A DNA stretch of 14,115 bases, from UHGV virus genome UHGV-0305805. One strand, written 5' to 3'. The stretch is from a virus. Below the pieces are notes generated by a model, which saw nothing but the letters and a program-made list of their open reading frames with translations, was not told where the DNA came from and searched no databases. The position numbers and the translations under genes are program-made. Within the stretch, counting starts at the first letter, position 1. Each line of letters opens with the position of its first letter. Below are positions 1 through 13,200 of this stretch, one piece after another.

Positions 1-133
1 AACAGCATACAGAAGGGGCTTAAAAGCCCCTTTAGTGTTTTATGGGTGAAAAAATTATGAAGAGTATGGAAATCCGGTCATCGGAAATCACTACCAGCGG
101 AGCCGGTACGCTGACGGGCTACGTTGTTCGCTG
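1..133. repeat. Inverted repeat, left copy: exact reverse complement of 3003-3135
   Basis: Base-by-base comparison: 1-133 equals the reverse complement of 3003-3135, and identity stops at 134 (g versus t). It contains the palindromic hairpin GGGGCTTAAAAGCCCC (14-29) plus T-rich tract, and the first ~30 codons of the protease gene. Confidence 0.9.
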
Positions 134-614
134 GGATAAGCTTTCAGAACTGCTATGGGGGGAGTTTTACGAAAAATTCCAGCGGGGGGCGTTTACTGAG
201 TGGCTTGCGGCGGGTAATGACGTTCGCGGCCTGTATGAGCATGACCACAGCATGTTACTGGGGCGCACCCGTTCCGGCACGCTGAAACTGGAAGAGGACG
301 AAACAGGGTTACGCTTTGAACTGACCCCACCGGATACCAGTACAGGGCGCGACGTTATCGAACTGGTTAAGCGTGGGGACATCTCGGGGATGAGCTTTGG
401 CTTTCGCTCCCGTAAGGATGTATGGGATACCACAACAGATCCATGCGTGCGCACCGTGCTGGTGGCGGAACTGTACGAAATTACCGTTACATCGGTACCG
501 GCTTACCCCGATTCCGGCGTGGAGCTGGCCCGCCGTTCCCTGTATGAGCAGCACCCCGAAAAAATGCCGCGTGCGGATAATCGCCGCTGGTGGGTGGATT
601 TAGCGGGGGTGTGA
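42..614 (+). CDS. Prohead maturation protease, HK97 / S78 family
   Basis: 190-aa ORF with the conserved histidine context LYEHDHSMLLGRT and serine context DISGMSFGF typical of this protease family. Stop overlaps the portal start region. A likelier start is ATG at 57, preceded by GGGTGA. Confidence 0.85.
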   Translation: MGEKIMKSMEIRSSEITTSGAGTLTGYVVRWDKLSELLWGEFYEKFQRGAFTEWLAAGNDVRGLYEHDHSMLLGRTRSGTLKLEEDETGLRFELTPPDTSTGRDVIELVKRGDISGMSFGFRSRKDVWDTTTDPCVRTVLVAELYEITVTSVPAYPDSGVELARRSLYEQHPEKMPRADNRRWWVDLAGV

Positions 615-615
615 T

Positions 616-1827
616 ATGTGGCCTTTCAGAAGAAAAAAAGAGCAGCGCAGCATGACGCTGGATGAATTTATGGCGCTGGCTGGCACATCGAACACGGGGG
701 CGGGTGAGTACGTATCATCGGGGACAGCGGAATCACTGCCCGCCGTCATGAACGCCGTGACGGTCATCTCTGAGGCGGTGGCTACCATGCCGTGTTACCT
801 GTACCTGGTACGCAATGAGAAGGGGAAGGAGGCCCGCGAGTGGCTTGATTCTCATCCGGTCGATCACATCCTCAACGAGCGCCCGAACGCATGGCAAACC
901 CCCTACCAGTTTAAGCGAATGATGATCCGCCACTGCCTGTTAAACGGTAATGCTTATGCGGTGATTCAGTGGGGGCGTGATGGTTTTCCGGCGGCTTTAC
1001 ATCCTTACCCGCCGCAGTCGGTGAACGTGGAGCAGACAGGCGAACACAACTGGCGCTACTGCATCACTGACGCCTACACCGGAAACACCCGCAACTATTT
1101 ACCGTGGGAAGTACTTCACCTTCGTTACTCCACGGATGACGGCTTTATGGGGCGCTCACCTGTAACCATCTGCCGCGAATCGCTGGGGCTTGGGCTGGCC
1201 CAACAACGCCACGGCGCGAGCGTGATGCGTGATGGCATGATGGCGGCAGGGGTTATCACGTCAGGCGAATGGCTGGACGGCGTGAAGGGCAAACAGGCAT
1301 TAGCCGCACTGGAACGCTACAAAGGGGCCAGAAACGCCGGAAAAACGCCCATCCTTGAAGGGGGTATGAGCTATCAGCAGCTGGGCATGAGTAATCAGGA
1401 TGCTGAATGGCTGGCCTCCCGTCGCTTCACCATTGAAGACATCGCCCGAATGTTCAACGTCTCGCCGATTTTTTTGCAGGAATACAGCAACAGCACCTAC
1501 AGCAATTTCAGCGAGGCAAGCCGCGCATTTCTCACCATGACGATGCGCCCGTGGCTGGCGAACTTTGAGCAGCAGATAAAAAACGCCCTGCTGGTGGCCT
1601 CGCCTGTACCTGGTATCCGGTATCAGGTGGAGTTTGACAGCGCGGACCTGTTACGGGCCACACCTGGCGAACGCTTTGCCACCTATGAGCGCGGCATCAA
1701 ATCCGGCGTTATGTGTCCGAACGAAGCCCGCGAACGTGAAGGTCTGTCACCGCGTGATGGTGGTGATGAGTTCAGCCAGGCATGGAAACAGGAAGTAAAA
1801 ATCAGCGAGGGAGAAAAACCGGAATGA
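616..1827 (+). CDS. Phage portal protein (HK97-family-like)
   Basis: 403-aa ORF immediately after the protease and followed by head-completion genes; size and position fit a portal. Its stop overlaps the next start (ATGA). Confidence 0.75.
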   Translation: MWPFRRKKEQRSMTLDEFMALAGTSNTGAGEYVSSGTAESLPAVMNAVTVISEAVATMPCYLYLVRNEKGKEAREWLDSHPVDHILNERPNAWQTPYQFKRMMIRHCLLNGNAYAVIQWGRDGFPAALHPYPPQSVNVEQTGEHNWRYCITDAYTGNTRNYLPWEVLHLRYSTDDGFMGRSPVTICRESLGLGLAQQRHGASVMRDGMMAAGVITSGEWLDGVKGKQALAALERYKGARNAGKTPILEGGMSYQQLGMSNQDAEWLASRRFTIEDIARMFNVSPIFLQEYSNSTYSNFSEASRAFLTMTMRPWLANFEQQIKNALLVASPVPGIRYQVEFDSADLLRATPGERFATYERGIKSGVMCPNEAREREGLSPRDGGDEFSQAWKQEVKISEGEKPE

Positions 1828-2162
1828 ACATAGGGCGACTGCGTGACAGGATAACGATTCAGACCCTGAAACAGACCAGGGATATAACCGGCGAAATACT
1901 CGAAACGTGGGAGGACGGTCACACACTCTGGGCAAGCGTGAACATGGTCAGCAGCAAGGAGGCCATTTCATCGGGCGCAGAGCTGGCGATTGGTACCGTA
2001 AGGATCTGGATACGGTACCGGAAGGACATCAACGCCACCAGCCGGATAAAGGTCAGTACGGGGCCGCTGGCGGGGCGTGTACTGAATATCATCGGGCAGC
2101 CGCTGCCGGATGCCGCCAGGACACGCCTTGAAATTCTTTGTCGTGAGGGCGCGGAAAAATGA
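1824..2162 (+). CDS. Head closure / head-tail joining protein
   Basis: About 112 aa starting MNIGRLRDRITIQ at an ATGA overlap with the portal stop; contains an IRYRKDI-type motif common in head-tail joining proteins. The ORF track extends it to 1782. Confidence 0.6.
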   Translation: MNIGRLRDRITIQTLKQTRDITGEILETWEDGHTLWASVNMVSSKEAISSGAELAIGTVRIWIRYRKDINATSRIKVSTGPLAGRVLNIIGQPLPDAARTRLEILCREGAEK

Positions 2163-2455
2163 CAGAAGAACTTATCACCCTGGAAGAAGTGAAACTCCAT
2201 TGCCGCATCGATGGCGACGATGAAGACCAGTTAATCAGCGGATACATTGCCGCATCGCTTGAGGCGTGCCAGATACACATAGGCAGGCGCTTTGATGACG
2301 GGCTGGAGTTCACGCCAGCCATAAAGATTGGCTGCATGATGTTTATCGCTCACCTGTATGAAAATCGCCAGATTGTCGCGGATAACGCAAAAACACGCGT
2401 ACCCATGACGATAGGCGCACTCTGGACGGCTTACCGTGATGTGGGGGTGTACTGA
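2159..2455 (+). CDS. Head-tail connector (gp6-like DNA-packaging / connector protein)
   Basis: 98 aa; N-terminal ITLEEVKLHCRIDGDDEDQLI resembles the conserved N-terminus of gp6-type connectors. Translationally coupled on both sides. Confidence 0.65.
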   Translation: MTEELITLEEVKLHCRIDGDDEDQLISGYIAASLEACQIHIGRRFDDGLEFTPAIKIGCMMFIAHLYENRQIVADNAKTRVPMTIGALWTAYRDVGVY

Positions 2456-2895
2456 TGCCGTGGCAACCATTAAGACGATGCACAGAACCAGGCTGTAACA
2501 GGCGCGTTAAATCCGGCAAGTGTGAGGAGCACAGGCGGGCGGCATGGCGTGCAGAGGATGCCAGACGAGGACACCGCCGCGCGCGTGGATATTCCAGACA
2601 GTGGGACAAATACCGCGCCATGTATCTGAGTAAAAACCCGTTATGCGTGCGATGCCTTGAGAAGGGGATATATACGCCCGCCGTGGTGGTGGATCACATT
2701 ATCCCGATTAATGGCGGTGATGATGTTCTCTTCTGGCCCGAATGGAACCATCAACCATTGTGCCAGGCGTGTCATAACCAGAAAACGAAATGGCTTGATC
2801 CGGCAACAAAAAGCAAGCGTGCCGCAGGTGGATTTCGTGAAGAGGAAGAACGGGCCGCTAACCGCAATAACTGGATGTATGACGCTGATGAATGA
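2455..2895 (+). CDS. HNH endonuclease (packaging-associated)
   Basis: 146 aa with paired cysteine motifs (CTEPGCNRRV, CVRCLEKG) and the catalytic-type region VVDHIIPINGGDD...NHQPLCQACHNQKT. Confidence 0.85.
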   Translation: MPWQPLRRCTEPGCNRRVKSGKCEEHRRAAWRAEDARRGHRRARGYSRQWDKYRAMYLSKNPLCVRCLEKGIYTPAVVVDHIIPINGGDDVLFWPEWNHQPLCQACHNQKTKWLDPATKSKRAAGGFREEEERAANRNNWMYDADE

Positions 2896-3058
2896 GCGGG
2901 AACAAAACCGCCTTATCCGTGGACTTATAAGGCAGCGTGACGCATGGAAGACACAGGAAACAGGGCATAAAGATAAAGCGTCAGGACGCGCAGAACGCAT
3001 CACAGCGAACAACGTAGCCCGTCAGCGTACCGGCTCCGCTGGTAGTGATTTCCGATGA
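2888..3058 (+). CDS. Short ORF (56 aa) whose last 18 codons lie inside the inverted repeat; possible 5' remnant of a disrupted gene downstream of HNH
   Basis: ATG at 2888 overlaps the HNH stop. Codons 1-38 are unique sequence; the remainder is antisense of the protease 5' end supplied by the repeat. The longer 2657-3058 version in the ORF track overlaps HNH out of frame. Confidence 0.2.
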   Translation: MNEREQNRLIRGLIRQRDAWKTQETGHKDKASGRAERITANNVARQRTGSAGSDFR

Positions 3059-3135
3059 CCGGATTTCCATACTCTTCATAATTTTTTCACCCATAAAACA
3101 CTAAAGGGGCTTTTAAGCCCCTTCTGTATGCTGTT
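3003..3135. repeat. Inverted repeat, right copy: exact reverse complement of 1-133
   Basis: Same comparison as the left copy. The repeat ends one base short of the last capsid codon position (capsid stop is the complement of 3134-3136). Confidence 0.9.
3091..3121 (-). terminator. Intrinsic terminator after the capsid gene
   Basis: GC hairpin GGGGCTTTTAAGCCCC at 3106-3121; on the minus strand it is followed by TTTAGTGTTTT. A second copy sits at 14-39 inside the left repeat. Confidence 0.6.
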
Positions 3136-4291
3136 AATCGTCGTCCTGTGGCAGTTCCAGAATCTTGATCGCGTTCGAATCCACCACGCCACCGCCTAAA
3201 TATTTCTGCGTGAAAATTTTGATGAAGCCCGGCTCTGTGAGGTTGTCCGGTCTGGTGCGAACACCTGTTTCGTGATCAACAATGTAGTAACCGCGTTTGA
3301 AGTCACCCAGGGCAATAACGTTATCCGGCATAAACTCCAGATATTCGACCGGAAGGCCCAGTAACGTATCAGGATCACCCGCCTGTAAACGGTCGCGCCA
3401 GATGTAATCACCGTTCGCGTTCTTCACCTTCTGAAGTTTTGCCGCCGTCGTGGAGTTAACCACCCAGACCGCGTTTTTGCGGTATTTTTTACGTAATGCA
3501 AATTTCAGGTCGATCAGCGGGTCCGCAGATGTCCACGCCAGAGATTCGGAAGGTTTAATTACCTGCAACGTACCAAAATCACGCTCTTTGTCGTTCTTCT
3601 CTGCACGGGGTACGGATAAAAAGCCTTTTGCTTTTTTGTCACCGTCGCCCACAACCAGATCGCTTTCTTCGGTTTCCGTGAAGTTGTCGCCAATCTCGCC
3701 CGTCAGCCATGAAAGGATGTCCACATCGGAAAAATCCACGATTTCCTGCGTGGTGCGCGGGTACGCATAGACCGGATACAGCTTAATGCTCACCTCGTTA
3801 ATCTGCGGGGTGCTGGTCTGTTCGCGTGCCTTACCCTCTTCACCGTGGTTAACGGTCGCACCGCCAGCGGAAACAAGCTGCTTAAACTCGTTGCTGCTGA
3901 TTTTCTTCACGGTACAGATGCGGCGCATGGTGGATTCATCCGTCAGCATTCGCATGATTTCGGTGTTCAGTTCGGGGATAACGGTATAACCACCATCAGC
4001 GGGAACGCCTGTACTTAATGCGCGGGTTTCACCTGTCAGAATGTAGTGACGTAGTTCGGCTGGGTCAGTGGTCTGACTGCTTTTACCTGGCTTGCTGCGC
4101 TCTTCGTCTGCAATGGCTTCAAGGCGGGAAATGTCTTTATCGAGGGATTCAGCTTTAGCGCGTAATTCGTCAAATTTTGCGCCCTCAGCATCGTTAAGAC
4201 TGCGGTTTTCTTTTTCCGCGTTCTCCAGCATGTCGCGCATCTGATTTTTAATGGCGGTTTTCTGCTGGCGTAATTCGATTATTCTCGGCAT
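3134..4291 (-). CDS. Major capsid protein, HK97 fold, with an N-terminal coiled-coil (scaffold-like) domain
   Basis: 385 aa. The first ~70 residues are charged and heptad-like (ELRQQKTAIKNQMRDMLENAEKENRSL...), followed by a capsid-like body. Confidence 0.85.
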   Translation of the reverse strand: MPRIIELRQQKTAIKNQMRDMLENAEKENRSLNDAEGAKFDELRAKAESLDKDISRLEAIADEERSKPGKSSQTTDPAELRHYILTGETRALSTGVPADGGYTVIPELNTEIMRMLTDESTMRRICTVKKISSNEFKQLVSAGGATVNHGEEGKAREQTSTPQINEVSIKLYPVYAYPRTTQEIVDFSDVDILSWLTGEIGDNFTETEESDLVVGDGDKKAKGFLSVPRAEKNDKERDFGTLQVIKPSESLAWTSADPLIDLKFALRKKYRKNAVWVVNSTTAAKLQKVKNANGDYIWRDRLQAGDPDTLLGLPVEYLEFMPDNVIALGDFKRGYYIVDHETGVRTRPDNLTEPGFIKIFTQKYLGGGVVDSNAIKILELPQDDD

Positions 4292-4328
4292 AAAAAAAGT
4301 CCTGGGGTTAAGTAAGGAACTCCAGGAC
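4292..4328 (-). terminator. Leader hairpin plus U7 tract directly abutting the capsid start codon; the Shine-Dalgarno lies in the 3' arm
   Basis: Minus-strand RNA reads GUCCUGG...CCAGGAC then UUUUUUU then AUG. Stem 4299-4305 pairs with 4322-4328 and can extend by about 3 more pairs; AGGA is inside the 3' arm. Confidence 0.5.
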
Positions 4329-4503
4329 GCGGCAAAAACTCAACCGTTTTTCATAAGGAAATCAGCAATCGCACCGATCGTTTTCCCGCCTGGTAATGAA
4401 TATTGGCGAGAACATTAACAGGCGGAAAAGTGGCCCCAGCGTCCTGGCACCACGGGCGAGAATAATCATGATTCAGTTCGGGTAAAATATGCCGATCCGC
4501 TCA

Positions 4504-4532
4504 GTGAACAACGTGGAACAACCACGAACAAA
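4504..4532. promoter_or_regulatory. Phased GAACAA hexamers (x3, 10-bp spacing) including CAACGTGGAACAA; upstream of the capsid gene
   Basis: GAACAA at 4506, 4516 and 4526; the 13-mer CAACGTGGAACAA at 4509-4521. Confidence 0.4.
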
Positions 4533-4540
4533 TAATTTAC

Positions 4541-4572
4541 AAAACATGACAAAAAGCCGGATTGCTCCGGCT
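4541..4572 (-). terminator. Intrinsic terminator after the PerC-like gene
   Basis: Minus strand: AGCCGG-agcaat-CCGGCT followed by TTTTTGTCATGTTTT. Confidence 0.6.
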
Positions 4573-4578
4573 GTGTGA

Positions 4579-4860
4579 TTATCTGTCCTGGTAATTTCGC
4601 CATATTTCATTACCAGCACCATCCATACCCATTTCGGCATAAGTGCGATCGACCGCCTTTTTCAGGTCTCCGTAGTTATCCGGCGGCTCCGGTGGCCTCT
4701 GTGCCTTCCTGGAACATTCCAGCCGTCGCATCGTGATGTGATGCCGTTCCTTGTCTGTCTCCACCAGTTGCATGACTTCACCCCATCGCGCCGACGCTCT
4801 CCGGTAAAAGCCTTTCGCCTCCAGTTCTTCCGCTATGCGGTCATGTACCATCGTCCCCAC
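4579..4860 (-). CDS. Small regulator, PerC / ANR-like (tentative)
   Basis: 93 aa; the segment AEELEAKGFYRRASARWGEVM resembles the motif I recall for PerC/ANR-family small regulators. This is from memory and was not searched. Confidence 0.5.
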   Translation of the reverse strand: MGTMVHDRIAEELEAKGFYRRASARWGEVMQLVETDKERHHITMRRLECSRKAQRPPEPPDNYGDLKKAVDRTYAEMGMDGAGNEIWRNYQDR

Positions 4861-4863
4861 CCC

Positions 4864-5274
4864 TCAGAACGGAATATCATCACCGTAAGGGTCATCGCCT
4901 CCCGCTGGTGGCTGATTACCCTGTGTGCCTGTGGTCTTGCGTCGGCTCCCACCAGGACGTGCCGCACGGGCACTGATTACGCTGTCTGCAATAACCTGAT
5001 AACCCTGCCGCGTTTCCCCGTTCTGTCCGGTCCACTGGCTGACCTGCATCGTGCCGGATACGCTGGCAACGTCGCCTTTTTGATGTTTAGCCAGGAAGTC
5101 GGCCTGCTTACCAAATGCGATGACCGATAGCCATAACGTCGCCTGTCCATCCTGTGCCTGGCTGCATGGCAGCGATACCGCCATACGCGCCAGCGTCATC
5201 GGTGTACCCTTGCTGGTCTGTTTTACCTGCGGGTCGTCCACCAGCCGCCCGTAAGCTGCTATCTGTGCTGTCAT
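4864..5274 (-). CDS. ssb: Single-stranded DNA-binding protein
   Basis: 136 aa; Gly/Pro/Gln-rich linker and an acidic C-terminal tail ending DDIPF, the hallmark SSB tip. Confidence 0.8.
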   Translation of the reverse strand: MTAQIAAYGRLVDDPQVKQTSKGTPMTLARMAVSLPCSQAQDGQATLWLSVIAFGKQADFLAKHQKGDVASVSGTMQVSQWTGQNGETRQGYQVIADSVISARAARPGGSRRKTTGTQGNQPPAGGDDPYGDDIPF

Positions 5275-5549
5275 GATTCCACCTCTCCGGTTTTAACGTT
5301 GATGGTTGTTACCTGTTCCGCTTCGGCAATCTCCCGCTCTGTCAGCGTGGCAAAATTTGCCGCCGTCGTGGTCATGAATGCGCTTATCAGTTCGGGATGT
5401 GCTTTCGCGTATCCTTCCCCCGCGTGGCGGTCTATCGTTCTGATTGCCACCTTTAAAGCGTGCTCTGTCATGTCTAACGCGCGATATTTCGGTTCTGTTC
5501 TGTCTCTGCGTTTTTTGAGTGATTTATTAAATTTCCCTGAAGTGTGCAT
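5271..5549 (-). CDS. Hypothetical protein (92 aa)
   Basis: ORF between the origin iterons and ssb; its stop overlaps the ssb start (ATGA). Weak ribosome-binding site. Confidence 0.45.
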   Translation of the reverse strand: MHTSGKFNKSLKKRRDRTEPKYRALDMTEHALKVAIRTIDRHAGEGYAKAHPELISAFMTTTAANFATLTEREIAEAEQVTTINVKTGEVES

Positions 5550-5597
5550 ATTTATTTTTACCCCCTCGTTTAAAAAGTTTTGAGTTGTGCCTCCCCT

Positions 5598-5824
5598 TGT
5601 CTACCTTATCTACCTTAGTGGCCCTCATACCAGTAATGGCGCGGCTTTCAGCGGGGTAGAGTGCTTTTATCCACTATCTACCCCGTGTCTACCTCCCTGT
5701 CTGATTCAGGTAAAATCAGGTAGAGAGGGTAGATAGTGGGTAGACAGTAAAAAAAGGTTATCTACCTAACTTAATGCACTGAATTAAATGTATTTTTCTT
5801 TACTCAGGTAGACAGGGTAGACAG
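5598..5824. repeat. Iteron array, putative origin of replication (GGTAGACAG family, both orientations, with an AT-rich tract)
   Basis: At least 11 copies of GGTAGA[C/G/T]AG or its complement at 5598-5614, 5653-5661, 5674-5693, 5719-5747 (three in tandem), 5758-5766 and 5807-5824 (two in tandem). AT-rich stretch at 5770-5805. Immediately downstream of the primase gene. Confidence 0.75.
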
Positions 5825-5837
5825 CAATTACAAAAAA

Positions 5838-7592
5838 TTATAAAAACGCGTCGCACTCGTCTGTTGTTATTGCGTTAGTCTGCGTTACTCCCTTAACTTT
5901 CCGCGTAATATATTCATGTCCGTAAACTTTCGCGGCTGGCTTCATAGCCTTGCCAAAGTCATTTACGTTTAGCGGTTTGCTCCTGCCTGCGTACGCCATA
6001 AACGCCAGATAGACGCGGTAAAGGCTGTTTCTGGTCGTGTACTTCACTGAATCGCCACCGCCGCCCATCATCAGGCCGCGTGCTTCCTCCAGAAAATTCA
6101 GGAACTGGCAAAACTCAATAACCGGATCCGTCTGTTGCTTTATTGCCAGAGCTTCATCACCGTCACGCTGTTCCAGTAGTAAAGCCCGTGCCTTCTCAGG
6201 GTCGGTAAAGTTCGCCAGCAATCGGCGGATAATGACAGGGATTTCAGCCGCGATCTTTTCCGGTAGCTCCCTGTCTTTTTCGGCCTCACTGACGATATTG
6301 TCGAAACGGAAAATCACGCGACGACGTGCCACACCTCCGGCCCGTTCGGTGAATATCATCGGGTTATTGTTGGTCGCCAGCACCACCGCCCTGATTACCG
6401 CCGTGAAACGCTTTTCGTATTTCGGGTTAATTTCCACGGGGTCACCGCCCGTGATTTTCTTGATGCCCGTTCCTTCGCCTGTATATTTCGGCTGGTCAGC
6501 CAGGACGATAAGACGACTCCCGACAACCTGCGCACGTCCACCAGCATCATCAAGCGATGTCATTTCAGCGCTTACCGTGTTCTGTTTCCCTGCCAGAAGG
6601 CTGGCTATGTGTGTGAATGTACTTTTACCGCTCCCGCCGTCTCCGGTGGCCTCAATAAACATCTGCCAGTCGTACCGGTTCGCCATAATCATGTACAGCG
6701 CGGCACATATACGCATCATCTTGCGCGGGTCTTTTCCGGCTGCGTGCTCAAGCCATTTATGAAAGTTTGGCGCGTTATCGCGGATGTTCTCCCCTGGTGC
6801 TGGTGGCGTGTACTCAATGCCGTTGTGCGTGGTGATCCAGTTCTCCGGCGTGTGCGGGGAAAATTCCCCCGTTTTCAGGTCAAGCGCACCATTGGCGAAC
6901 GGCAACAAATCGCCGGACGGCTCGCCCATTGGTTCGGCAATAACTTTTAACGCTTCCACGGCGTTATTGATTACGCGCTTGCTGAAAGTGGCCCTGTGCT
7001 CTGAATAGATCGCCACCATTTCGCGGCTAAGTTCCATTGTGCTGACCGGACACCATACCCCGCCGCGCCATACGTGAACGATTTCACTTTCAGGATGTAC
7101 GCAAACGCCATCAAAGCGATCGGCAAGCAGCTGCGCGCGCTCACTGTCCGCCATCTGCGAAAGTTGCGCCTTTTGCTTTACCGGAAGCTCAATGACCAGA
7201 CCATCAGAAAGATTCTGGCGCTCACGGGCCAGATATTCGCGCCAGTTCTCCACCTTCTGACCGTGCATACCATCAGGGTAAAAATTTGCATCCTGTACGC
7301 CTGCCGCCGCCAGCTTCTGACCAATCGCCTTTATCATTACTGGCGCAAGATATCCGGCCCTGAATATGCGCACGGATTTTCTGCCTTCCGGCACAATTTG
7401 CAGCTTATCCAGTTCGGATAACTGCTGCTCCCCAAGCCACACAGGAGGCTCATTATCTCCGGCCATACGCGCGTCATGTTCCTGCCATTGTTTTGCGTGT
7501 GACCAGGCATCACTACCCGCAAAAATAATGACTTCTGTTTCTTTGTGTTTTATGCCGCGTGACTGCTGTTTTACGTTCGGTGCCAGTTTCAT
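5838..7592 (-). CDS. Primase / replicative helicase, P4-alpha-like
   Basis: 584 aa; Walker A GDGGSGKST and Walker B-like LIVLADQP in the C-terminal half, with a primase-like N-terminal half. Start overlaps the upstream ORF stop (ATGA). Confidence 0.85.
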   Translation of the reverse strand: MKLAPNVKQQSRGIKHKETEVIIFAGSDAWSHAKQWQEHDARMAGDNEPPVWLGEQQLSELDKLQIVPEGRKSVRIFRAGYLAPVMIKAIGQKLAAAGVQDANFYPDGMHGQKVENWREYLARERQNLSDGLVIELPVKQKAQLSQMADSERAQLLADRFDGVCVHPESEIVHVWRGGVWCPVSTMELSREMVAIYSEHRATFSKRVINNAVEALKVIAEPMGEPSGDLLPFANGALDLKTGEFSPHTPENWITTHNGIEYTPPAPGENIRDNAPNFHKWLEHAAGKDPRKMMRICAALYMIMANRYDWQMFIEATGDGGSGKSTFTHIASLLAGKQNTVSAEMTSLDDAGGRAQVVGSRLIVLADQPKYTGEGTGIKKITGGDPVEINPKYEKRFTAVIRAVVLATNNNPMIFTERAGGVARRRVIFRFDNIVSEAEKDRELPEKIAAEIPVIIRRLLANFTDPEKARALLLEQRDGDEALAIKQQTDPVIEFCQFLNFLEEARGLMMGGGGDSVKYTTRNSLYRVYLAFMAYAGRSKPLNVNDFGKAMKPAAKVYGHEYITRKVKGVTQTNAITTDECDAFL

Positions 7593-7888
7593 TTTTTACC
7601 CCTGAATCCGTTAATCATGGTTTTCAGCTTCTGGATGTTTGCCCGTGCCCTGGCGTTGCTGGTGGACACGTTATGCGGCGCGGTCTGTACCAGAGAAAAA
7701 TCACGCCGGAACTGATAAACAGGCATCACGCAATCATATTCGTAACCTTCACGGCGGTAGGTTACGCGCCGTTCTTCCACGCCCTTAATCATTACCGTGC
7801 CGCCGTACTGGTCGCGGTAAATATCGCCGCGCGTAAATTTAGGGTGAGTGTTGCCACTGGCAGTTAAGCCAGAATATTTAAGTTTCAT
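7589..7888 (-). CDS. Hypothetical protein (99 aa), translationally coupled to the primase
   Basis: ATG at 7886-7888; stop overlaps the primase start. Confidence 0.55.
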   Translation of the reverse strand: MKLKYSGLTASGNTHPKFTRGDIYRDQYGGTVMIKGVEERRVTYRREGYEYDCVMPVYQFRRDFSLVQTAPHNVSTSNARARANIQKLKTMINGFRGKK

Positions 7889-7893
7889 TATTT

Positions 7894-8127
7894 TTATTCT
7901 CCGGTGTGCTGTTCTTTATATCTGTCGTGCAATAGATCTATTTCTTGCAGTTCCATTATTACAGGCTCAAGAAGCGTTATTAATGCCGTGGCAATTCTTG
8001 ATTTTTGTTTGTCGCGTTCATTGTCGCCAAGTGTTTCAAGCCATATGCGCAATATTTCCAGCATGTTTTCACTGTGAGAAAGTGCAAGAAATGCGCGGTC
8101 TATTGTTTCGTGGTAAATATCACGCAT
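7894..8127 (-). CDS. Hypothetical protein (77 aa)
   Basis: ATG with GAGGA upstream; overlaps the stop of the upstream ORF by 8 nt. Confidence 0.55.
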   Translation of the reverse strand: MRDIYHETIDRAFLALSHSENMLEILRIWLETLGDNERDKQKSRIATALITLLEPVIMELQEIDLLHDRYKEQHTGE

Positions 8128-8353
8128 GGCTTACATCCTCAGGAAATTTTCTTCTATAACGCGCCTCTGCCACATATTCCGCATAATCGGCGGCGATATT
8201 CAGTACATCAAGCCCCGTTGATTTATATTCTCTCGTGGAAAGTAAGAAAAAAGCCGCTCTAATAAGTTCTGGCATTGACGAAAGCGCATCAGCCGCATCA
8301 TCAGGAACGCCGGAAAATTCCTGTTTCAGGGAATTAAAACGATCATCACGCAT
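8120..8353 (-). CDS. Hypothetical protein (77 aa)
   Basis: ATG with GGGGGG upstream; 8-nt overlap with the upstream ORF. Confidence 0.55.
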   Translation of the reverse strand: MRDDRFNSLKQEFSGVPDDAADALSSMPELIRAAFFLLSTREYKSTGLDVLNIAADYAEYVAEARYRRKFPEDVSHA

Positions 8354-8711
8354 GTTTACCCCCCTGAATGACCTGATAACCGCAACTGGTCAGCAACTCG
8401 ATAAATTCCGGCAGTGTGCCGAAACAGCAATCATCACGCAGCCGTTCACAGGATACCTCGACGCCGTTTTCGTAGTGACTCACCATACATCCGGTAAAAT
8501 GCAGATCATCATCGTGATGGCTCGTTGACGGCTTAATCAGTCGCGCACGTTCCGCCAGTTCCAGCAATGCTTCAACGCTTCCGGCAATTGCACCATCCGG
8601 CAGGTGATAATTACGCACTATGCGCCCGTTCTCCACATTGACCAGCAACTGCCCGGTAAATTTCTCATCAAACTGAATGCTGTTAAGGTCAGAAATTGAC
8701 AGATTATGCAT
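8346..8711 (-). CDS. Hypothetical protein (121 aa)
   Basis: ATG at 8709-8711 preceded by a perfect AGGAGG at about 6-nt spacing. The ORF track extends it to 8729. Confidence 0.6.
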   Translation of the reverse strand: MHNLSISDLNSIQFDEKFTGQLLVNVENGRIVRNYHLPDGAIAGSVEALLELAERARLIKPSTSHHDDDLHFTGCMVSHYENGVEVSCERLRDDCCFGTLPEFIELLTSCGYQVIQGGKHA

Positions 8712-8928
8712 GGTGCACCTCCTGCACATCAGCCATGATAATTTTTCCGGCCTTATCCAGTGCCTGATCGGCTTTTAGCTGCACAAATGCTAAATAATGG
8801 AAGATGCATTCTGATTCTCTGGCTGCGTGTTTATGCGCCCTGTCAGCAATAACAGAAATATCAATAAGCGCGTGCATCAGCGTAGTGAGCGCGGCGGCGG
8901 CTGCGTCCGGTGTGGTTTTATTGCACAT
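8704..8928 (-). CDS. Hypothetical protein (74 aa)
   Basis: ATG at 8926-8928 preceded by GGAGGGG. The ORF track extends it to 8982. Confidence 0.5.
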   Translation of the reverse strand: MCNKTTPDAAAAALTTLMHALIDISVIADRAHKHAARESECIFHYLAFVQLKADQALDKAGKIIMADVQEVHHA

Positions 8929-9148
8929 GTACCCCTCCGCATTTTTTTTCGTTAGAAATAAGCGTTCTTCTTTCCTGTTCATCGCTCAGGAATACGCAGA
9001 CCTCACCGCTAAGGCGTTTAAGTAAGCCGATGATTGCCCCTGATTCGCTGTCGGTCATCATGCCAGGGTAATCCTCTGCCAGTGCGCAAATAACTTCGAT
9101 TTGGTGGGCGCGTTCTGCTGCCTGTTGTAGTGTGATTTCCTGGCTCAT
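8918..9148 (-). CDS. Hypothetical protein (76 aa)
   Basis: ATG at 9146-9148 preceded by GGGGGTAGG; ATGA overlap with the upstream ORF. Confidence 0.55.
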   Translation of the reverse strand: MSQEITLQQAAERAHQIEVICALAEDYPGMMTDSESGAIIGLLKRLSGEVCVFLSDEQERRTLISNEKKCGGVHVQ

Positions 9149-9345
9149 AAGCCTACCCCCTGACGAATACGGGCAGCAAATACCATCACGCAGCCAGCCG
9201 GAGATTGCTGGCGTGCTTCCTGTTCGCTGGTGGCCTCAATGGTAATCACGCGCGGTTGTGCCGTGCTCAGGGCGATAAAACGCCAGATGTATTTATTCAG
9301 GTTGTGCGAGTCCCGCCCTTGCGGGTGTGTGGTATGATTTCTCAT
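9145..9345 (-). CDS. Hypothetical protein (66 aa), first gene of the leftward operon
   Basis: ATG at 9343-9345 preceded by GAGGTAG. It is the C-terminal part of a 340-aa ORF in the track that I regard as spurious upstream of this start. Confidence 0.5.
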   Translation of the reverse strand: MRNHTTHPQGRDSHNLNKYIWRFIALSTAQPRVITIEATSEQEARQQSPAGCVMVFAARIRQGVGL

Positions 9346-9441
9346 AGCTACCTCGATACTTTCGCTATCGTTGGTGGTTAGAAGCCCGGTTAGTGTTAGC
9401 GCACTGCCGGGTTTCGTCGTTTCTGCACCTTGCGCCAACAA

Positions 9442-9495
9442 GGTGTTGAACACCAATTTAAACCCAGGTGTTAAACACGTCAAGTGTTGAACACT
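9442..9495. promoter_or_regulatory. Three palindromic operator-like sites, GTGTT-N-AACAC, between divergent promoters
   Basis: GGTGTTGAACACC at 9442-9454, GTGTTAAACAC at 9468-9478, AGTGTTGAACACT at 9483-9495; centres 25 and 16 bp apart. The third overlaps a -35-like TTGAAC for the rightward gene. Confidence 0.6.
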
Positions 9496-9544
9496 TATTT
9501 TTTTTCCTGCATACTGCATTTGTTTTTTATGAGGGGTACACCAC

Positions 9545-9724
9545 ATGGCGACAAAAGCGGTAAACGCAAAATCACAAACCGTTGCGGCAAGGGTTCCGCA
9601 TGAAGTTATGAACAATGTTGAGGCGGTAAAAATGCCTGGCGAAAGTACGGGGCAATTTGTTACTGCGGCATTAAAACGAGAAGTTGAATATCGCCAGCGG
9701 CGCAAGGCCAAAGAACCAGAGTAA
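9545..9724 (+). CDS. Ribbon-helix-helix (Arc/CopG-like) DNA-binding protein, candidate repressor
   Basis: 59 aa, ATG preceded by GAGGGG at 8-nt spacing. Sequence fits a beta-strand (TVAARVPHEV) followed by two helices; basic C-terminus. Below the 60-aa cutoff of the ORF track. Confidence 0.55.
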   Translation: MATKAVNAKSQTVAARVPHEVMNNVEAVKMPGESTGQFVTAALKREVEYRQRRKAKEPE

Positions 9725-9781
9725 TCACCATCAGCGCCGTGGTGTAAGGTATTACGGCGCATTGCTATGCAGGACAACACA

Positions 9782-9955
9782 ATGACCGATAAAGAATTGA
9801 CCAAAACATTATCACCGGCACGGAAAAGACGGCGCAGAAAGATAGAGCATGAATCAGAAAGATTCGCGCCATGTGCTTTTGCCCTTGAGCAATTCCTTAA
9901 AGAGTACAGGGAAAAGCGCTCATTGCAGGTATGGCAACGAACTGAACCAGACTGA
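9782..9955 (+). CDS. Small basic protein (57 aa), possibly co-transcribed with the ribbon-helix-helix gene
   Basis: ATG at 9782 with AGGA about 9 nt upstream; arginine/lysine-rich (ARKRRRRKIEHE). Coding status uncertain. Confidence 0.3.
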   Translation: MTDKELTKTLSPARKRRRRKIEHESERFAPCAFALEQFLKEYREKRSLQVWQRTEPD

Positions 9956-10050
9956 TTGCATTGCCCACCAGCCTGATAACGGCTATCATCCCCGTGCTTA
10001 TGTTTGGGATCACACACACAAACGGCGCAGCGGGTTATCTGTTCAGAAAG

Positions 10051-10078
10051 GCGGCTCCATTTCGGGGCCGCTTTTTTT
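10051..10078 (+). terminator. Intrinsic terminator ending the rightward transcript
   Basis: GCGGCTCC-attc-GGGGCCGC followed by seven T. Confidence 0.65.
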
Positions 10079-10224
10079 ATACCTGAAAAACCCCAATTTT
10101 GTTGTTTTTCAGTTTCACCAGGGCGAACGAATCCCCGCCCACGTTCTGGCGTATATTCAATCTTCATGGTTATAGCTCTGTGTTCAGATGATTGATGTGT
10201 GGCGGCTGCGTGCCGCCAGCGTGA

Positions 10225-10413
10225 TTAATGAACTGCCTTGCAGCTATCCTTCCAGGCCAGAACCTCGGATAAAGACCAGCCAACGGAACGACCGCCAAGT
10301 TTACGACGTGATGGGAATTGTCCGGCCTTTTCCAGGCGGTAGCGACACGTACGGCTAAGGCCGGTTAGTTTTTCGCATTCTTTTTCACGTATAAACCGAT
10401 CAGTGCTTAACAC
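10225..10413 (-). CDS. alpA: AlpA-family phage regulatory protein (helix-turn-helix activator)
   Basis: Contains EKLTGLSRTCRYRLEKAGQFPSRRKLGGRSVGWSLSEVLAW, matching the AlpA helix-turn-helix signature. Likely start is GTG at 10411-10413 preceded by AGGGGGG; the ORF track extends it to 10494 with a TTG start. Confidence 0.8.
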   Translation of the reverse strand: MLSTDRFIREKECEKLTGLSRTCRYRLEKAGQFPSRRKLGGRSVGWSLSEVLAWKDSCKAVH

Positions 10414-10686
10414 TATTGCCCCCCTTTCGTTTCTTAAAGAGTCATCAGGTGTCTTATTGTGTCGTATTGTTCCCGCTAGAGTGATGAATGGCAAATACTG
10501 AGGATGTATGATTTACAGAAAATGAAACAGTAAGAATAAAATCTTTTAAATTCATGTTAATACAAAGGCATAAAATATTGTTCCATGCCTTTTTTCTCGC
10601 TCTTTAAAGAGTGATTCGCTAGTGTACAAAAAACCAGTAACGCATTAAAAATCAGCCACTTATAAATCCGTACGCTTTTTCGCCTC

Positions 10687-10730
10687 TTGTTCGTAGTTGT
10701 TCCACATTGTTGCTCATTGTTGCACGTTGT
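10687..10730. promoter_or_regulatory. Phased TTGTT[C/G] hexamers (x4, exactly 10-bp spacing) ending in the complement of CAACGTGCAACAA
   Basis: TTGTTC at 10687 and 10697, TTGTTG at 10707 and 10717; the 13-mer at 10717-10729. Located between the integrase stop and alpA, in opposite orientation to the other three clusters. Confidence 0.4.
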
Positions 10731-10778
10731 ATCTGTTCGCATATCCAGTATGCGCATACTGAAAAAACACGAAAAAAA

Positions 10779-12008
10779 TTATTTTCTTCTGGCTACGGGT
10801 AGCGTGGTTACGTTTTCATGTGTTCCCGCCAGTATCCCTAACCGCTCCGTCCACATATCCAGCGCATTGCGTTTCGCATCCAGATAACGGGAATGATTAT
10901 AAACTCGCTGCATTCCTGGCATCTGGTGGCCTGTAAGCTGCTCCACGACATGCGGATCAACGCCTAAATCGTTCAGCATGGTTGTAAAGGTGCGCCGGAT
11001 GTCATGCAGTGACCAGTGAGGGTGATTAAGCCTCCTGTACGCTAATCTTCCATACTGCGATACGCTGGCCTCCTGTTTCACTTCCCCCAGCAATAAGCCC
11101 GTGTGCCTGTTCTGCTCCACCAGCTGCGTGACGAACGGCAGGATCGCTTCCGGTATGGGCCGGAATATTGCGACCTTCGTTTTGCTGTGCTCCTTCGGAA
11201 CGGTCCATAGCATTTCCGTAAAATCCCACTCCCCGATCTCCGATAACCTCAGTTCTACCGTTCTGGCTCCGAAGACAATCAGGAGGCGGATTAACGCGAC
11301 GTAGTAAGGGGAGAATATTTTTTTGTCCAGTGCCTGCAATAATTCGCCAAGTTCTTTGTTACTTAAGACACGTTCGCTTATATCCGGTTTTTTCCCAACG
11401 TCCGCAACGTTCAGATCGTCCAGAACGTTGCTGATTGCATAGCGCCGCCTACGGCAGAACTTAAGCGCCTGTTTGCACGCCTGTAGCACGAATCCGGCAG
11501 TAACAGGCGTTCGCTTTGCCACCTGGTCAAAACAGGCCAGCCAGTGCCGTAGCTCGCATTTATCCAGCGGCATAGCACCAATCTGCTGTATTACGTGATT
11601 ATTAAGTCGCCTTTTCAGGGCGATATAATCCACGCGGTTTTCCTTTACGTAATACTCAAGCCAGTAGGTGAGCGCATCGCCAACCGTTACGGGCTTTAAC
11701 GCTTCCTGTACGGTGTAATTCATCTCATGACGTGGATTTTTCCCCTCAGCCAGCCATGTGCGACACTGTGCGGCTTTTTCCCTGGCTGCTTTCAGGCTCA
11801 GATCAGGATAACTTCCCAGCTTAATGCGTTCGGGTCGTGTCTCCCTTCCCGTTCCGGCCCTGTATGTGAAATACCAGGTCAATTTCCCTGATGTTAAATA
11901 TTTCACGCTCAGGTTTCCGCCATCACTATAAAACGTGTTTTTCTCCGCTGGCTTACCATGAAGTTTCCTTAGCAAGGTATCGCTCAGTTTGTTCATTGCT
12001 CTGCTCAC
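10779..12008 (-). CDS. int: Tyrosine recombinase / integrase, P4-like
   Basis: 409 aa with catalytic-region motifs ARTVELR, HDIRRTF and a C-terminal YNHSRYLD tyrosine context. Start could be GTG at 12008 or ATG at 11996. Confidence 0.9.
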   Translation of the reverse strand: MSRAMNKLSDTLLRKLHGKPAEKNTFYSDGGNLSVKYLTSGKLTWYFTYRAGTGRETRPERIKLGSYPDLSLKAAREKAAQCRTWLAEGKNPRHEMNYTVQEALKPVTVGDALTYWLEYYVKENRVDYIALKRRLNNHVIQQIGAMPLDKCELRHWLACFDQVAKRTPVTAGFVLQACKQALKFCRRRRYAISNVLDDLNVADVGKKPDISERVLSNKELGELLQALDKKIFSPYYVALIRLLIVFGARTVELRLSEIGEWDFTEMLWTVPKEHSKTKVAIFRPIPEAILPFVTQLVEQNRHTGLLLGEVKQEASVSQYGRLAYRRLNHPHWSLHDIRRTFTTMLNDLGVDPHVVEQLTGHQMPGMQRVYNHSRYLDAKRNALDMWTERLGILAGTHENVTTLPVARRK

Positions 12009-12033
12009 GTTTTACCCCCTCTTTACGAAAAAG

Positions 12034-12056
12034 TGACTACACCAGTGACTACACCG
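12034..12056. repeat. 23-bp direct repeat, copy 1: TGACTACACCAGTGACTACACCG (tandem decamers)
   Basis: Exact match to 12267-12289. Sits 26-48 bp upstream of the integrase start and is followed by CAACGTGAAACAA (12076-12088) and phased GAACAA-like hexamers to about 12109. Confidence 0.8.
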
Positions 12057-12266
12057 ATCGTTGCACAAAGGGCTACAACGTGAAACAAGCTGGAACAAGG
12101 AAAATCACAAATCTGTTGATAATCAAAAACATAATGCACAGCCTGAAACATTATGAAACAGCAAAAAACACTAAATGATAAAATGCTGTTATATATAACT
12201 TATTTCGCATAACACATTGATTTAATTAAATAATTAACACCGCAAAAAGTGCCAAAAATCGCAAAA

Positions 12267-12289
12267 TGACTACACCAGTGACTACACCG
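12267..12289. repeat. 23-bp direct repeat, copy 2, followed by CAACGTGGAACAA (12309-12321)
   Basis: Exact match to copy 1. The 210 bp between the two copies is strongly AT-rich. Confidence 0.8.
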
Positions 12290-12551
12290 TTCGGTGCACT
12301 GTATGAAACAACGTGGAACAAATAGACACAAGAAATATACAGGCGGATCATCTTTCCAGGGGGAAGCACACCAATTCATGAGGGGCGTTAATGTCGATAT
12401 GGGGATCCCCACCTACCGGAATTTTTTTCCGGTTAAACGTTAATCAGGCTGGTGGGCTTTACCTGTTCGGTAGGTGTTATGATTATCGTAATACCTTTCC
12501 CCCAATGGGGTAAAAGCATCAACCGTAACGAAAGTCGTTATGGTTGCCACT

Positions 12552-12662
12552 GATACCCCAAATTTGGGTATCACGAGTAAGCCCCAAAATCTGGGTGTTA
12601 CTCTTACTACCCAAACTACGGGTAGTTTCCGTAGTTTCATGGTCGAGTTGCAGATCTGCAAC
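12552..12662. repeat. Cluster of four palindromes/hairpins in a gene-free region
   Basis: GATACCCCAAATTTGGGTATC (12552-12572); a CCCAAA...GGG unit near 12582-12597; ACTACCC-aaactac-GGGTAGT (12606-12626); perfect palindrome GTTGCAGATCTGCAAC (12647-12662). The first three share a CCCAAA-N-GGG(T) core spaced about 26 bp. Confidence 0.5.
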
Positions 12663-12918
12663 TCCCCCATTAACCACAGGCGAATTTCCGCCTTCGGTCA
12701 TTCCTTAATCATCTGCGTAATCATAATGATTATTCAGCAAGCGCAATTTTGCGCTTTGCTTAAAGTTCAGCGAGTTACCGCGCCGACTTCCTCAAATTGA
12801 GGTTTCCGAAAATATCAGCGGGTTAGCGATTAAGCTGACCATTAATTAAACTGCGAAAATGTCGTAGTTGTGAGGGGTGTAGCCAACCCATTTTTGGGCC
12901 GTCGGGAATATCAACCAG

Positions 12919-13200
12919 TTACCGCCGCAACCGCTCCGGCTTCTTCCAGTGGTACGTTATTTTCTCCTTCTCCCGATACATCTCCACGCGGCGACGGTAG
13001 GCCAGCAACTCAAGAACTCTGGTTCGTATGTTGCGCATATCCACGCCATTAAGTTCTATACCATCACGGCGCATCACCTCAGCAACAACACGCGCATAGT
13101 TTTCGGCTGTCACGCTGTCCGGCTGCGTGGCCTGTTCGTCAGCCTGCTGGCTGATTCCGGCAACGCGGCGGATTAATCCCGTTATTTCGGCTTCTGTCAT
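12919..13200 (-). CDS. Hypothetical protein (93 aa) downstream of the terminase fragment
   Basis: ATG at 13198-13200 with GAGG 8 nt upstream; starts 11 nt after the terminase-fragment stop; composition is protein-like. Confidence 0.5.
   Translation of the reverse strand: MTEAEITGLIRRVAGISQQADEQATQPDSVTAENYARVVAEVMRRDGIELNGVDMRNIRTRVLELLAYRRRVEMYREKEKITYHWKKPERLRR

What the first reader, a model, noticed from the sequence alone, without database searches (positions are those of the whole stretch)
5598..5824. Dense bidirectional iteron array immediately downstream of the primase/helicase
At least 11 copies of a 9-mer (GGTAGACAG and variants) in both orientations, with two tandem blocks and an AT-rich unwinding-like tract, form a textbook origin. 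This would be the site bound by the adjacent primase/helicase.
Basis: partly seen in the sequence, partly recalled or inferred. Interest (0 to 1): 0.4.

Follow-up and report, generated by a model that had tools for sequence, protein, structure and literature searches.

The report
Known PICI satellite replication origin
The repeat cluster is real and is the replication origin of an E. coli phage satellite (PICI); a 95%-identical copy from strain CFT073 was shown in 2018 to drive plasmid replication with its neighbouring gene, so this is a correct but already known feature.

Summary
Observation confirmed. Eleven copies of GGTAGA (consensus GGTAGAYAG), in both orientations, lie at 5598-5823. Only one other copy occurs in the 14-kb window. 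The array fills the gap between the stop of a 584-aa D5_N/SF3-helicase/winged-helix protein (5838-7592, minus strand) and the next gene. A 73-77% AT tract sits between the last two iteron blocks.

Interpretation supported, but not new. The window is an E. coli capsid-forming PICI. Its replication module is the EcCICFT073 module: Pri-Rep is 581/584 identical, the intergenic region is about 95% identical, and all 11 cores are kept. Fillol-Salom et al. 2018 (PMC6092414) cloned pri-ori into a thermosensitive plasmid.

My comparisons agree. Across 53 unique alleles the cores are 0.89 conserved against 0.61 for the spacers. All 80 virome relatives carry an array just 3' of pri. The iteron class follows the C-terminal winged-helix domain, which is homologous to the P4 alpha origin-binding domain (1KA8).

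Caveats: "primase" is unproven, because the protein lacks the P4 alpha primase domain and its N-terminus is only TOPRIM-like. Binding, melting and the start site were not mapped here.

Interest is low.

The parts
5550..5837 (.). Whole pri-to-next-gene intergenic region, which is the origin (ori). It is equivalent to the stretch removed in the EcCICFT073 delta-ori plasmid (window about 5527-5833).
   Evidence: PMC6092414
5598..5614 (-). Distal tandem iteron pair (GGTAGACA at 5598-5605, GGTAGATA at 5607-5614; 9-nt spacing).
   Evidence: cores invariant in 8 alleles
5630..5651 (.). Conserved non-iteron block CCAGTAATGGCGCGGCTTTCAG; function unknown.
   Evidence: Nearly invariant in alignment A2 (one variable column). 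0-2 mismatches in nearly all GGTAGA-class loci whose Pri is about 80% or more identical, and 3 mismatches in L082/L083, which use a different iteron
5655..5662 (+). Single iteron GGTAGAGT.
   Evidence: core invariant
5675..5693 (-). Tandem iteron pair (GGTAGATA at 5675-5682, GGTAGACA at 5686-5693; 11-nt spacing).
5719..5746 (+). Tandem iteron triplet (GGTAGAGA 5719, GGTAGATA 5728, GGTAGACA 5739).
5747..5806 (.). AT-rich tract (70-77% AT in 30-nt windows), the candidate DNA-unwinding element. It contains one minus-strand iteron at 5759-5766.
   Evidence: Same layout as described for PICI origins (PMC6092414 Fig. 2a legend; PMC9371898)
5759..5766 (-). Single iteron GGTAGATA inside the AT-rich tract.
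5807..5824 (+). Pri-proximal tandem pair GGTAGACAG GGTAGACAG (9-nt spacing). It is inverted relative to the distal pair at 5598-5614.
   Evidence: (I1)
5550..5582 (-). Conserved leader and ribosome-binding site of the downstream 92-aa ORF, including the A/T tract TTTAAAAAGTTTT (5569-5581) next to the distal iteron pair.
   Evidence: A similar AAAACTTTTT tract follows the distal pair in Serratia and Morganella and lies in P4 crr
5838..7592 (-). Pri-Rep initiator-helicase, 584 aa: TOPRIM-like N-terminal module (aa 1-130), D5_N (153-282), SF3 P-loop helicase (316-417), Pox_D5/winged helix (487-579).
   Evidence: 99.5% identical to EcCICFT073 Pri-Rep
5856..6131 (-). Region coding for the C-terminal winged-helix domain (aa 488-579), the presumed iteron reader.
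   Evidence: Match to PDB 1KA8, the P4 alpha origin-binding domain, E = 7e-7. Domain identity tracks iteron class
5271..5549 (-). First gene downstream of ori, a 92-aa hypothetical protein, followed by SSB (4864-5274) and PerC (4579-4860).

Best explanation
The array is the vegetative replication origin of a phage-inducible chromosomal island, here a capsid-forming PICI of E. coli. After induction and excision, the adjacent 584-aa protein (called Pri-Rep in the literature) binds the 8-9-bp GGTAGAYAG iterons through its C-terminal winged-helix domain. Iteron blocks in opposite orientation on either side of the AT-rich tract would position helicase hexamers, probably two. These would melt the AT-rich DNA and load themselves as 3'-5' SF3 helicases, starting island replication without the host initiator or helicase loader. 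What is shown: the array exists, it is under purifying selection at the cores, it is always coupled to pri, and a 95%-identical copy is required in cis, with pri in trans or cis, for plasmid maintenance (published). What is inferred by homology to P4 alpha and to SaPI Rep: that the winged helix reads the iterons, that melting occurs in the AT tract, and that hexamers self-load. What is unknown: who lays down the primers, because no primase domain could be verified.
For: (1) There are 11 GGTAGA cores in 226 bp against 0.5 expected in 14 kb. No second cluster exists in the window or in the complete integrated island L001. (2) Pri-Rep is 581/584 identical, and the intergenic region about 95% identical with all 11 cores retained, relative to EcCICFT073. 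There, pri-ori supports replication of a thermosensitive plasmid and delta-ori or delta-pri abolishes it (PMC6092414). Primer mapping puts the delta-ori deletion at window 5527-5833. (3) In 8 E. coli alleles with diverged spacers, the invariant columns are the cores, the downstream leader and one 22-nt block. In 53 unique alleles, identity to the window is 0.889 at the cores and 0.611 elsewhere, Mann-Whitney p = 2e-18. (4) All 80 IMG/VR relatives (Pri 53-100% identical) have a hexamer repeated 6-12 times, on both strands, within 330 nt 3' of pri. Serratia and Morganella relatives carry TGTTCAC and TGTTCAT arrays at the same position. (5) Pri residues 488-579 match the P4 alpha origin-binding winged helix 1KA8 (PMC2777425). 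Iteron class follows the C-terminal domain rather than the helicase core or the N-terminus: the Serratia C-terminal domain is 44% identical to P4 and 32% to the window, and Serratia uses P4-type TGTTCAC. L084 and L086 differ at 23 of 626 residues, 10 of them in the last 75, and switch from GTGTTCAT to GTATACAT. (6) The pri-array unit is found with several unrelated packaging modules, so it belongs to the replication module and not to the packaging module. (7) The layout matches the published description of SaPI and Gram-negative PICI origins (PMC9371898; PMC6092414).
Against: No binding, melting or start-site mapping exists for this allele, and none was found for EcCICFT073 in the paper read; the published evidence is plasmid maintenance. 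In P4, the array immediately 3' of alpha is crr, a cis-acting partner of a separate ori, so position alone does not prove that initiation starts here. Co-variation between the C-terminal domain and the iterons is confounded by physical linkage, since they lie about 120 bp apart. One natural chimera, L016, combines the alternative C-terminal patch (N544A/D545E/G547S) with an origin identical to the window's. The AT tract as the melting site is an assumption.
Confidence: 0.9

Rival explanations
1. The array is a crr-like cis-acting replication enhancer, as in P4, where the alpha-proximal repeat cluster cooperates with a distant ori. On this view it is not itself the site where replication starts.
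For: In P4 the cluster immediately 3' of alpha is crr (4291-4590, ten type-1 repeats) and the annotated ori lies about 4.5 kb away. Pri here is homologous to alpha residues 324-762.
Against: There is no second GGTAGA cluster anywhere in the window or in the complete 18-kb island locus. The EcCICFT073 pri-ori fragment, which contains only this cluster, is sufficient for plasmid maintenance (PMC6092414; primer mapping).
Confidence: 0.05
2. The repeats act mainly as operators or copy-control sites. Pri or another island protein would bind them to regulate transcription of the downstream SSB-PerC-capsid genes, or to handcuff copies, and origin function would be secondary.
For: The array lies in the only sizeable intergenic gap of a unidirectional operon, directly upstream of the next gene's conserved leader. 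Iterons of plasmids are known to have such dual roles (general knowledge).
Against: No sigma-70-like promoter was found on the coding (minus) strand and no terminator in 5400-5950. The delta-ori deletion abolishes replication in a plasmid where pri is driven from an arabinose promoter (PMC6092414). The array co-varies with Pri and not with the variable downstream genes.
Confidence: 0.04
3. The array is a packaging recognition site (cos or pac) for the island's own terminase.
For: The island encodes its own TerS, TerL and HNH. Repeat-rich sites occur at some pac sites (general knowledge).
Against: The same array occurs in islands with unrelated packaging modules or without their own terminase, e.g. 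EcCICFT073, whose cos deletion mutants are listed as separate constructs (delta-cos.1, delta-cos.2) from the ori constructs. In every relative the array is glued to pri, not to terS.
Confidence: 0.01

Closest known systems
EcCICFT073 pri-rep/ori module, the Gram-negative PICI origin (Fillol-Salom et al. 2018, ISME J, PMC6092414)
   Same: It is essentially the same sequence. Pri-Rep is 99.5% identical, the intergenic region is about 95% identical, and number, order and orientation of all 11 iterons are the same. The position 3' of pri and the AT-rich tract flanked by iteron sets also match. Function was tested by plasmid maintenance.
   Different: The host island differs. Here it is a capsid-forming PICI (own HK97-type capsid, protease, portal, HNH, TerS, TerL) integrated in tqsA. 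EcCICFT073 lies between phoQ and roxA and has a different morphogenesis module. There are 15 point differences in the 288-bp origin, two of them Y-to-Y swaps at iteron position 7.
SaPI Rep/ori (Staphylococcus aureus pathogenicity islands; PMC9371898)
   Same: The logic is the same: 6-12 short iterons immediately 3' of rep, an AT-rich centre, opposite orientations on the two sides, and a self-loading helicase-initiator with a C-terminal winged helix. The Pri core (aa 194-432) matches 7OLA, a 797-aa PDB chain deposited as 'DNA primase' (E = 4e-15), which I take from the paper's subject, not from the PDB record, to be the SaPI5 PriRep.
   Different: There is no detectable DNA similarity, the iteron sequence differs, and the host is Gram-negative. 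The N-terminal domain differs too: here it is a small TOPRIM-like module rather than a recognisable primase.
Satellite phage P4 alpha protein with ori/crr
   Same: Pri is 40% identical to alpha over the helicase and origin-binding domains. The short 8-bp repeats lie in both orientations immediately 3' of the gene, as in crr. An A/T tract sits next to a tandem repeat pair.
   Different: The iteron is GGTAGA rather than TGTTCACC. There is a single cluster instead of a bipartite ori plus crr. Pri lacks the Zn-ribbon and DnaG-type primase part of alpha. More distant relatives in Serratia, in Morganella and in loci L078-L083 do use P4-like TGTTCA iterons.

Membership tests
PICI replication origin (Pri/Rep-ori module) | The origin lies immediately 3' of the rep/pri-rep gene. 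| tested here: met
   The last iteron ends at 5823-5824 and the pri stop codon is at 5838-5840. The same holds in all 80 relatives.
PICI replication origin (Pri/Rep-ori module) | Multiple short iterons (about 6-12) in sets flanking an AT-rich region, with opposite orientations represented. | tested here: met
   There are 11 iterons, 6 on the + strand and 5 on the - strand. The AT-rich tract 5747-5806 lies between the 5719-5746 triplet and the 5807-5824 pair. The outer pairs are inverted relative to each other.
PICI replication origin (Pri/Rep-ori module) | The adjacent gene encodes a helicase-initiator with a C-terminal winged-helix DNA-binding domain. | tested here: met
   D5_N, DUF5906 and Pox_D5 domains, TIGR01613, 1KA8 winged-helix match at E = 7e-7 and 7OLA helicase match.
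PICI replication origin (Pri/Rep-ori module) | The fragment supports Rep-dependent autonomous replication. | not testable with these tools
   Published for the 95%-identical EcCICFT073 allele with a 99.5%-identical Pri-Rep (PMC6092414; primers). Not done for this exact allele.
PICI replication origin (Pri/Rep-ori module) | The host element is a PICI: integrase, AlpA-type regulator, unidirectional operon, no lysis or tail genes. | tested here: met
   The integrase is at 10779-12008. The identical island in E. coli PCN033 is annotated with an HTH regulator, an Icd-like protein, pri, SSB, PerC, capsid, protease, portal, connectors, HNH, TerS and TerL, with no tail or lysis genes, inside tqsA. This matches the cf-PICI criteria in 10.1101/2025.02.11.637232.
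P4 ori/crr | Type-1 repeats TGTTCACC bound by alpha. | tested here: not met
   The iteron here is GGTAGAYA. P4 repeats were verified in NC_001609.
P4 ori/crr | Two separated repeat clusters (ori and crr), both required. | tested here: not met
   There is a single cluster in the window and in the whole island.
P4 ori/crr | The initiator carries an N-terminal Zn-ribbon and DnaG-type primase domain. | tested here: not met
   [not shown]
Classical iteron plasmid oriV (RepA, pi, TrfA type) | Direct repeats of about 17-22 bp in one orientation, DnaA boxes, and a WH1-WH2 Rep initiator. | tested here: not met
   The repeats are 8-9 bp and in both orientations. The only DnaA-box-like site (5667, one mismatch) is at chance frequency and not conserved. 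The initiator is an SF3 helicase.

The most novel reading that the evidence does not exclude
The origin may be composite. Besides the Pri-bound iterons it holds a 22-nt block (5630-5651, CCAGTAATGGCGCGGCTTTCAG) that is nearly invariant across alleles whose spacers have diverged, and that recurs in a 55%-identical relative with a different iteron. This block could be the binding or priming site of a second, unidentified factor. In this reading the TOPRIM-like but apparently acid-residue-poor N-terminal module of Pri is an adaptor that recruits host priming machinery, not a primase. That module is also found fused to RepA/AAA_25-type helicases and to a third, unidentified type of downstream sequence.
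Probability: 0.2. Interest if true: 0.3.

Novelty: already known. Interest (0 to 1): 0.1.

Why it matters
It matters little beyond correct annotation. The finding marks the origin of a widespread family of E. coli phage satellites: matches occur in 424 of 5,426 complete E. coli genomes by near-identity search and in 564 by distant search. It also shows that capsid-forming PICIs and classical PICIs share one replication module. The comparative data give usable leads for specificity engineering, namely iteron classes paired with C-terminal winged-helix variants, and they flag that the "primase" name of this protein family is not backed by domain evidence.

Tried and rejected
- **Phage collection search:** searching the 301-bp region in distant mode gave no match.
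- **IHF consensus:** there is no site inside the array; the matches lie near attP instead.
- **DnaA boxes:** only a one-mismatch site at 5667, at chance frequency and not conserved in other alleles.
- **Promoter and terminator scan:** nothing on the coding strand and no terminator, so a promoter or terminator reading was dropped.
- **Rfam:** only sub-threshold miRNA-hairpin hits caused by the inverted iterons. The strong single-strand DNA fold (z = -4) has the same trivial cause.
- **Genome-contig scan with a single protein:** it returned only 3 loci; the alignment-based viral scan was far more productive.
- **A residue-level specificity code:** N544/G547 pairs with YA at iteron positions 7-8 in 36/36 loci, and the alternative patch pairs with non-YA in 26/27. 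I do not claim this as a code. The sites are tightly linked, and L016 is a natural chimera that combines the other patch with an identical origin.
- **Citing the P4 iteron:** a literature search for a citable TGTTCACC statement found nothing, so the P4 repeats were verified directly in NC_001609.

Full report
**1. The observation**

The stretch 5550-5837 is the gap between two minus-strand genes. One is a 584-aa ORF (5838-7592). The other is a 92-aa ORF that starts at 5549.

The hexamer GGTAGA occurs 11 times inside this gap.
- On the + strand it starts at 5655, 5719, 5728, 5739, 5807 and 5816.
- On the - strand it occupies 5598-5605, 5607-5614, 5675-5682, 5686-5693 and 5759-5766 (8-mer coordinates).
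- Only one further copy exists in the whole 14,115-bp window, at 11254.

The degenerate 8-mer GGTAGABA has 10 exact matches, all within 5598-5823, against 0.51 expected. None of 200 shuffles reached 10. The consensus is GGTAGA-Y-A-G.

The copies form four tandem blocks spaced 9 or 11 nt, plus three singles. The outer pairs (5598-5614 and 5807-5824) are inverted relative to each other. Between the 5719-5746 triplet and the 5807-5824 pair lies a tract of 70-77% AT, compared with 59% for the whole gap. This tract carries one iteron.

**2. The context**

Pfam assigns the 584-aa protein D5_N (aa 153-282), DUF5906, i.e. the SF3 P-loop (316-417), and Pox_D5 (487-576). Neighbouring genes encode SSB, PerC, an HK97-type capsid protein, a DUF4222 protein and a tyrosine integrase.

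The region is 100% identical in many E. coli chromosomes. It matches 424 of 5,426 complete genomes in near mode and 564 in distant mode, and never a plasmid. In strain PCN033 the island sits inside tqsA. It is annotated with integrase, HTH regulator, Icd-like protein, pri, SSB, PerC, capsid, protease, portal, connectors, HNH, TerS and TerL, and has no tail or lysis genes. That is the gene set used to define capsid-forming PICIs (10.1101/2025.02.11.637232).

**3. It is the EcCICFT073 origin**

E. coli CFT073 carries a copy between phoQ and roxA.
- Its Pri-Rep is 581/584 identical to the window's.
- Its intergenic region is about 95% identical, with all 11 cores in the same order and orientation.

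Fillol-Salom et al. [quoted passage not shown] They cloned the EcCICFT073 rep gene plus the putative ori into thermosensitive pKO3-blue. The pri-ori construct gave colonies at 44 C. The pri-delta-ori and delta-pri-ori constructs gave significantly fewer.

I mapped their primers. The pri-ori insert ends at the ATG of the downstream ORF, and the delta-ori insert ends 4 nt before the pri stop. The deleted segment therefore corresponds to window 5527-5833, which is the array.

**4. Independent comparative support**

*Conservation of the cores.* Eight E. coli alleles have spacers that have diverged to about 72-77% identity or become only partly alignable. All keep 9-11 GGTAGA cores in the same architecture. 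The invariant alignment columns are the cores, the leader and ribosome-binding site of the downstream gene, and one 22-nt block. Over 53 unique alleles, identity to the window is 0.889 at core positions and 0.611 at other positions (Mann-Whitney p = 2e-18).

*Coupling to pri.* In 80 IMG/VR loci encoding Pri relatives (53-100% identical), every locus has a hexamer repeated 6-12 times on both strands within 330 nt 3' of pri. The repeat classes are:
- GGTAGA, in the 65 loci with Pri 70% or more identical
- TGTTCACC
- TGAACAGT
- ATGAACAC
- GGTATACA

Serratia and Morganella relatives carry TGTTCAC and TGTTCAT arrays at the same position.

*Independence from packaging.* The pri-array unit is combined with at least four different downstream morphogenesis or packaging modules. 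This argues against a packaging role.

**5. Which part of the protein reads the iterons**

Residues 488-579 match PDB 1KA8 (E = 7e-7). This is the winged-helix origin-binding domain of P4 alpha (Yeo et al. 2002, as cited in PMC2777425). Residues 194-432 match 7OLA, a 797-aa chain deposited as 'DNA primase'. I take it to be the SaPI5 PriRep studied in PMC9371898, but I did not check the PDB record.

Pri aligns to P4 alpha residues 324-762 at 40% identity. P4's own type-1 repeats, TGTTCACC, lie in crr immediately 3' of alpha and in the distant ori.

The Serratia protein is informative.
- Its N-terminus is the window's type (47% identical to the window, 21% to P4).
- Its helicase core is closer to the window (60% against 45%).
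- Its C-terminal domain is closer to P4 (44% against 32%).
- Its iterons are P4-like.

L084 and L086 differ at only 23 of 626 residues, 10 of them in the last 75. Their iterons differ as GTGTTCAT against GTATACAT.

Within the GGTAGA class there is a further association.
- The motif V-N-[DE]-F-G (N544, G547) goes with YA at iteron positions 7-8 in 36/36 loci.
- The motif V-A-[ED]-F-S goes with non-YA in 26/27 loci.

L016 is a natural exception. Its Pri equals the window's except N544A/D545E/G547S, caused by a 60-nt conversion patch, while its origin is 288/288 identical to the window's. I therefore do not claim a residue-level code.

**6. Mechanism**

The mechanism is inferred by analogy with SaPI Rep, whose properties are summarised in PMC9371898:
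- a winged helix in the C-terminal domain recognises the iterons
- 6-12 iterons lie 3' of rep
- the centre is AT-rich
- binding and melting are ATP-independent

P4 alpha is the second analogue.

I infer that Pri binds the GGTAGAYAG sites, melts 5747-5806 and loads itself. Transcription of the unidirectional operon probably runs through the origin, because no minus-strand promoter and no terminator was found.

**7. "Primase" is unverified**

No Pfam or NCBIfam primase domain is found. The NCBI name "DNA primase family protein" derives from TIGR01613, which covers the helicase part. The P4 alpha Zn-ribbon and DnaG-type region has no counterpart in this protein.

The same N-terminal module is also fused to RepA/AAA_25 helicases and to a third, unidentified type of downstream sequence. 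So the initiator-helicase role is well supported, but primase activity is not.

**8. Rivals**

- *A crr-like enhancer.* This is unlikely. There is no second cluster in the island, and the CFT073 fragment is sufficient for replication.
- *An operator or copy-control role.* This may be an additional function but does not explain the delta-ori phenotype.
- *A packaging site.* This is contradicted by the module shuffling.
- *Chance.* This is excluded.

**9. Verdict**

The feature is an already described and experimentally tested kind of origin, and it is nearly the same sequence as the tested one. Novelty is "already known" and interest is low.

The residual points of interest are the conserved 22-nt block at 5630-5651, the doubtful primase assignment, and the iteron/winged-helix variant pairs.

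Noticed in passing
window 1-3009, 2999-12192, 12184-12873, 12872-13979, 13980-14115: The window is not collinear with the integrated island in E. coli PCN033 (L001). Only 2999-12192 is collinear. 1-3009 is the reverse complement of the protease-portal-connector-HNH block, and 137 bp are present twice in inverted orientation (1-137 and 2999-3135). At about 12184-12192 the integrase end is joined to the opposite island end, an attP-like circular junction. 13980-14115 is again inverted. This looks like an excised or packaged island assembled with inverted chimeric ends, possibly an assembly or amplification artefact.
   Followed up: partly
window 5630-5651: A 22-nt non-iteron block, CCAGTAATGGCGCGGCTTTCAG, lies inside the origin. 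It is almost invariant (0-2 mismatches, at a fixed distance from the pri stop) in nearly all GGTAGA-class alleles whose Pri is about 80% or more identical. It recurs with 3 mismatches in L082/L083, whose Pri is 55% identical and whose iteron is different. No promoter, IHF or DnaA consensus explains it.
   Followed up: partly
[not shown]
   Followed up: partly
window 5950-5970 (Pri residues 541-547) and L013-L077: Within the GGTAGA class, the Pri motif LNV-N-D-F-G goes with iterons GGTAGA-YA (36/36 loci) and LNV-A-E/D-F-S goes with GGTAGA-GG/TG/AG (26/27). The exception, L016, is a natural chimera: a 60-nt conversion patch in pri combined with an origin identical to the window's.
   Followed up: yes
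L084 versus L086 (IMG/VR), 330 nt 3' of pri: Two Pri proteins differ at 23 of 626 residues, 10 of them in the last 75 (KERKTRGV against KERRARGM). Their arrays are dominated by GTGTTCAT and GTATACAT respectively, with mixed copies in both. This looks like an initiator and its iterons changing specificity together.
   Followed up: partly
window 5569-5581; L010 about 4525-4535; L011 about 4105-4117; L012 (P4) 4291-4305 and 4471-4486: An A-tract/T-tract element (AAAACTTTTT-like) lies next to a tandem iteron pair in the E. coli, Serratia and Morganella islands and at the start of each P4 crr 120-bp repeat. It may be a conserved bend or a second unwinding element.
   Followed up: no
window 12210-12222, 12813-12825, 12909-12921: Three of the five IHF-consensus matches in the window cluster around the attP-like junction downstream of the integrase. 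This is consistent with an intasome region.
   Followed up: no
window 7589-7888 and 7589-7592: A DUF4222 gene overlaps the pri start by 4 nt (ATGA), which suggests translational coupling. It accompanies pri in every annotated E. coli allele examined. Its function is unknown.
   Followed up: no
L002-L008 compared with window 1-4860: The same pri-ori-92-aa-ORF core, followed by SSB in all but one of the alleles examined (L008), is joined to at least four different morphogenesis or packaging modules: the full HK97-type set, capsid plus decoration protein, a ClpP-capsid fusion, and TerS-only types. Classical and capsid-forming PICIs of E. coli therefore exchange a common replication cassette.
   Followed up: partly
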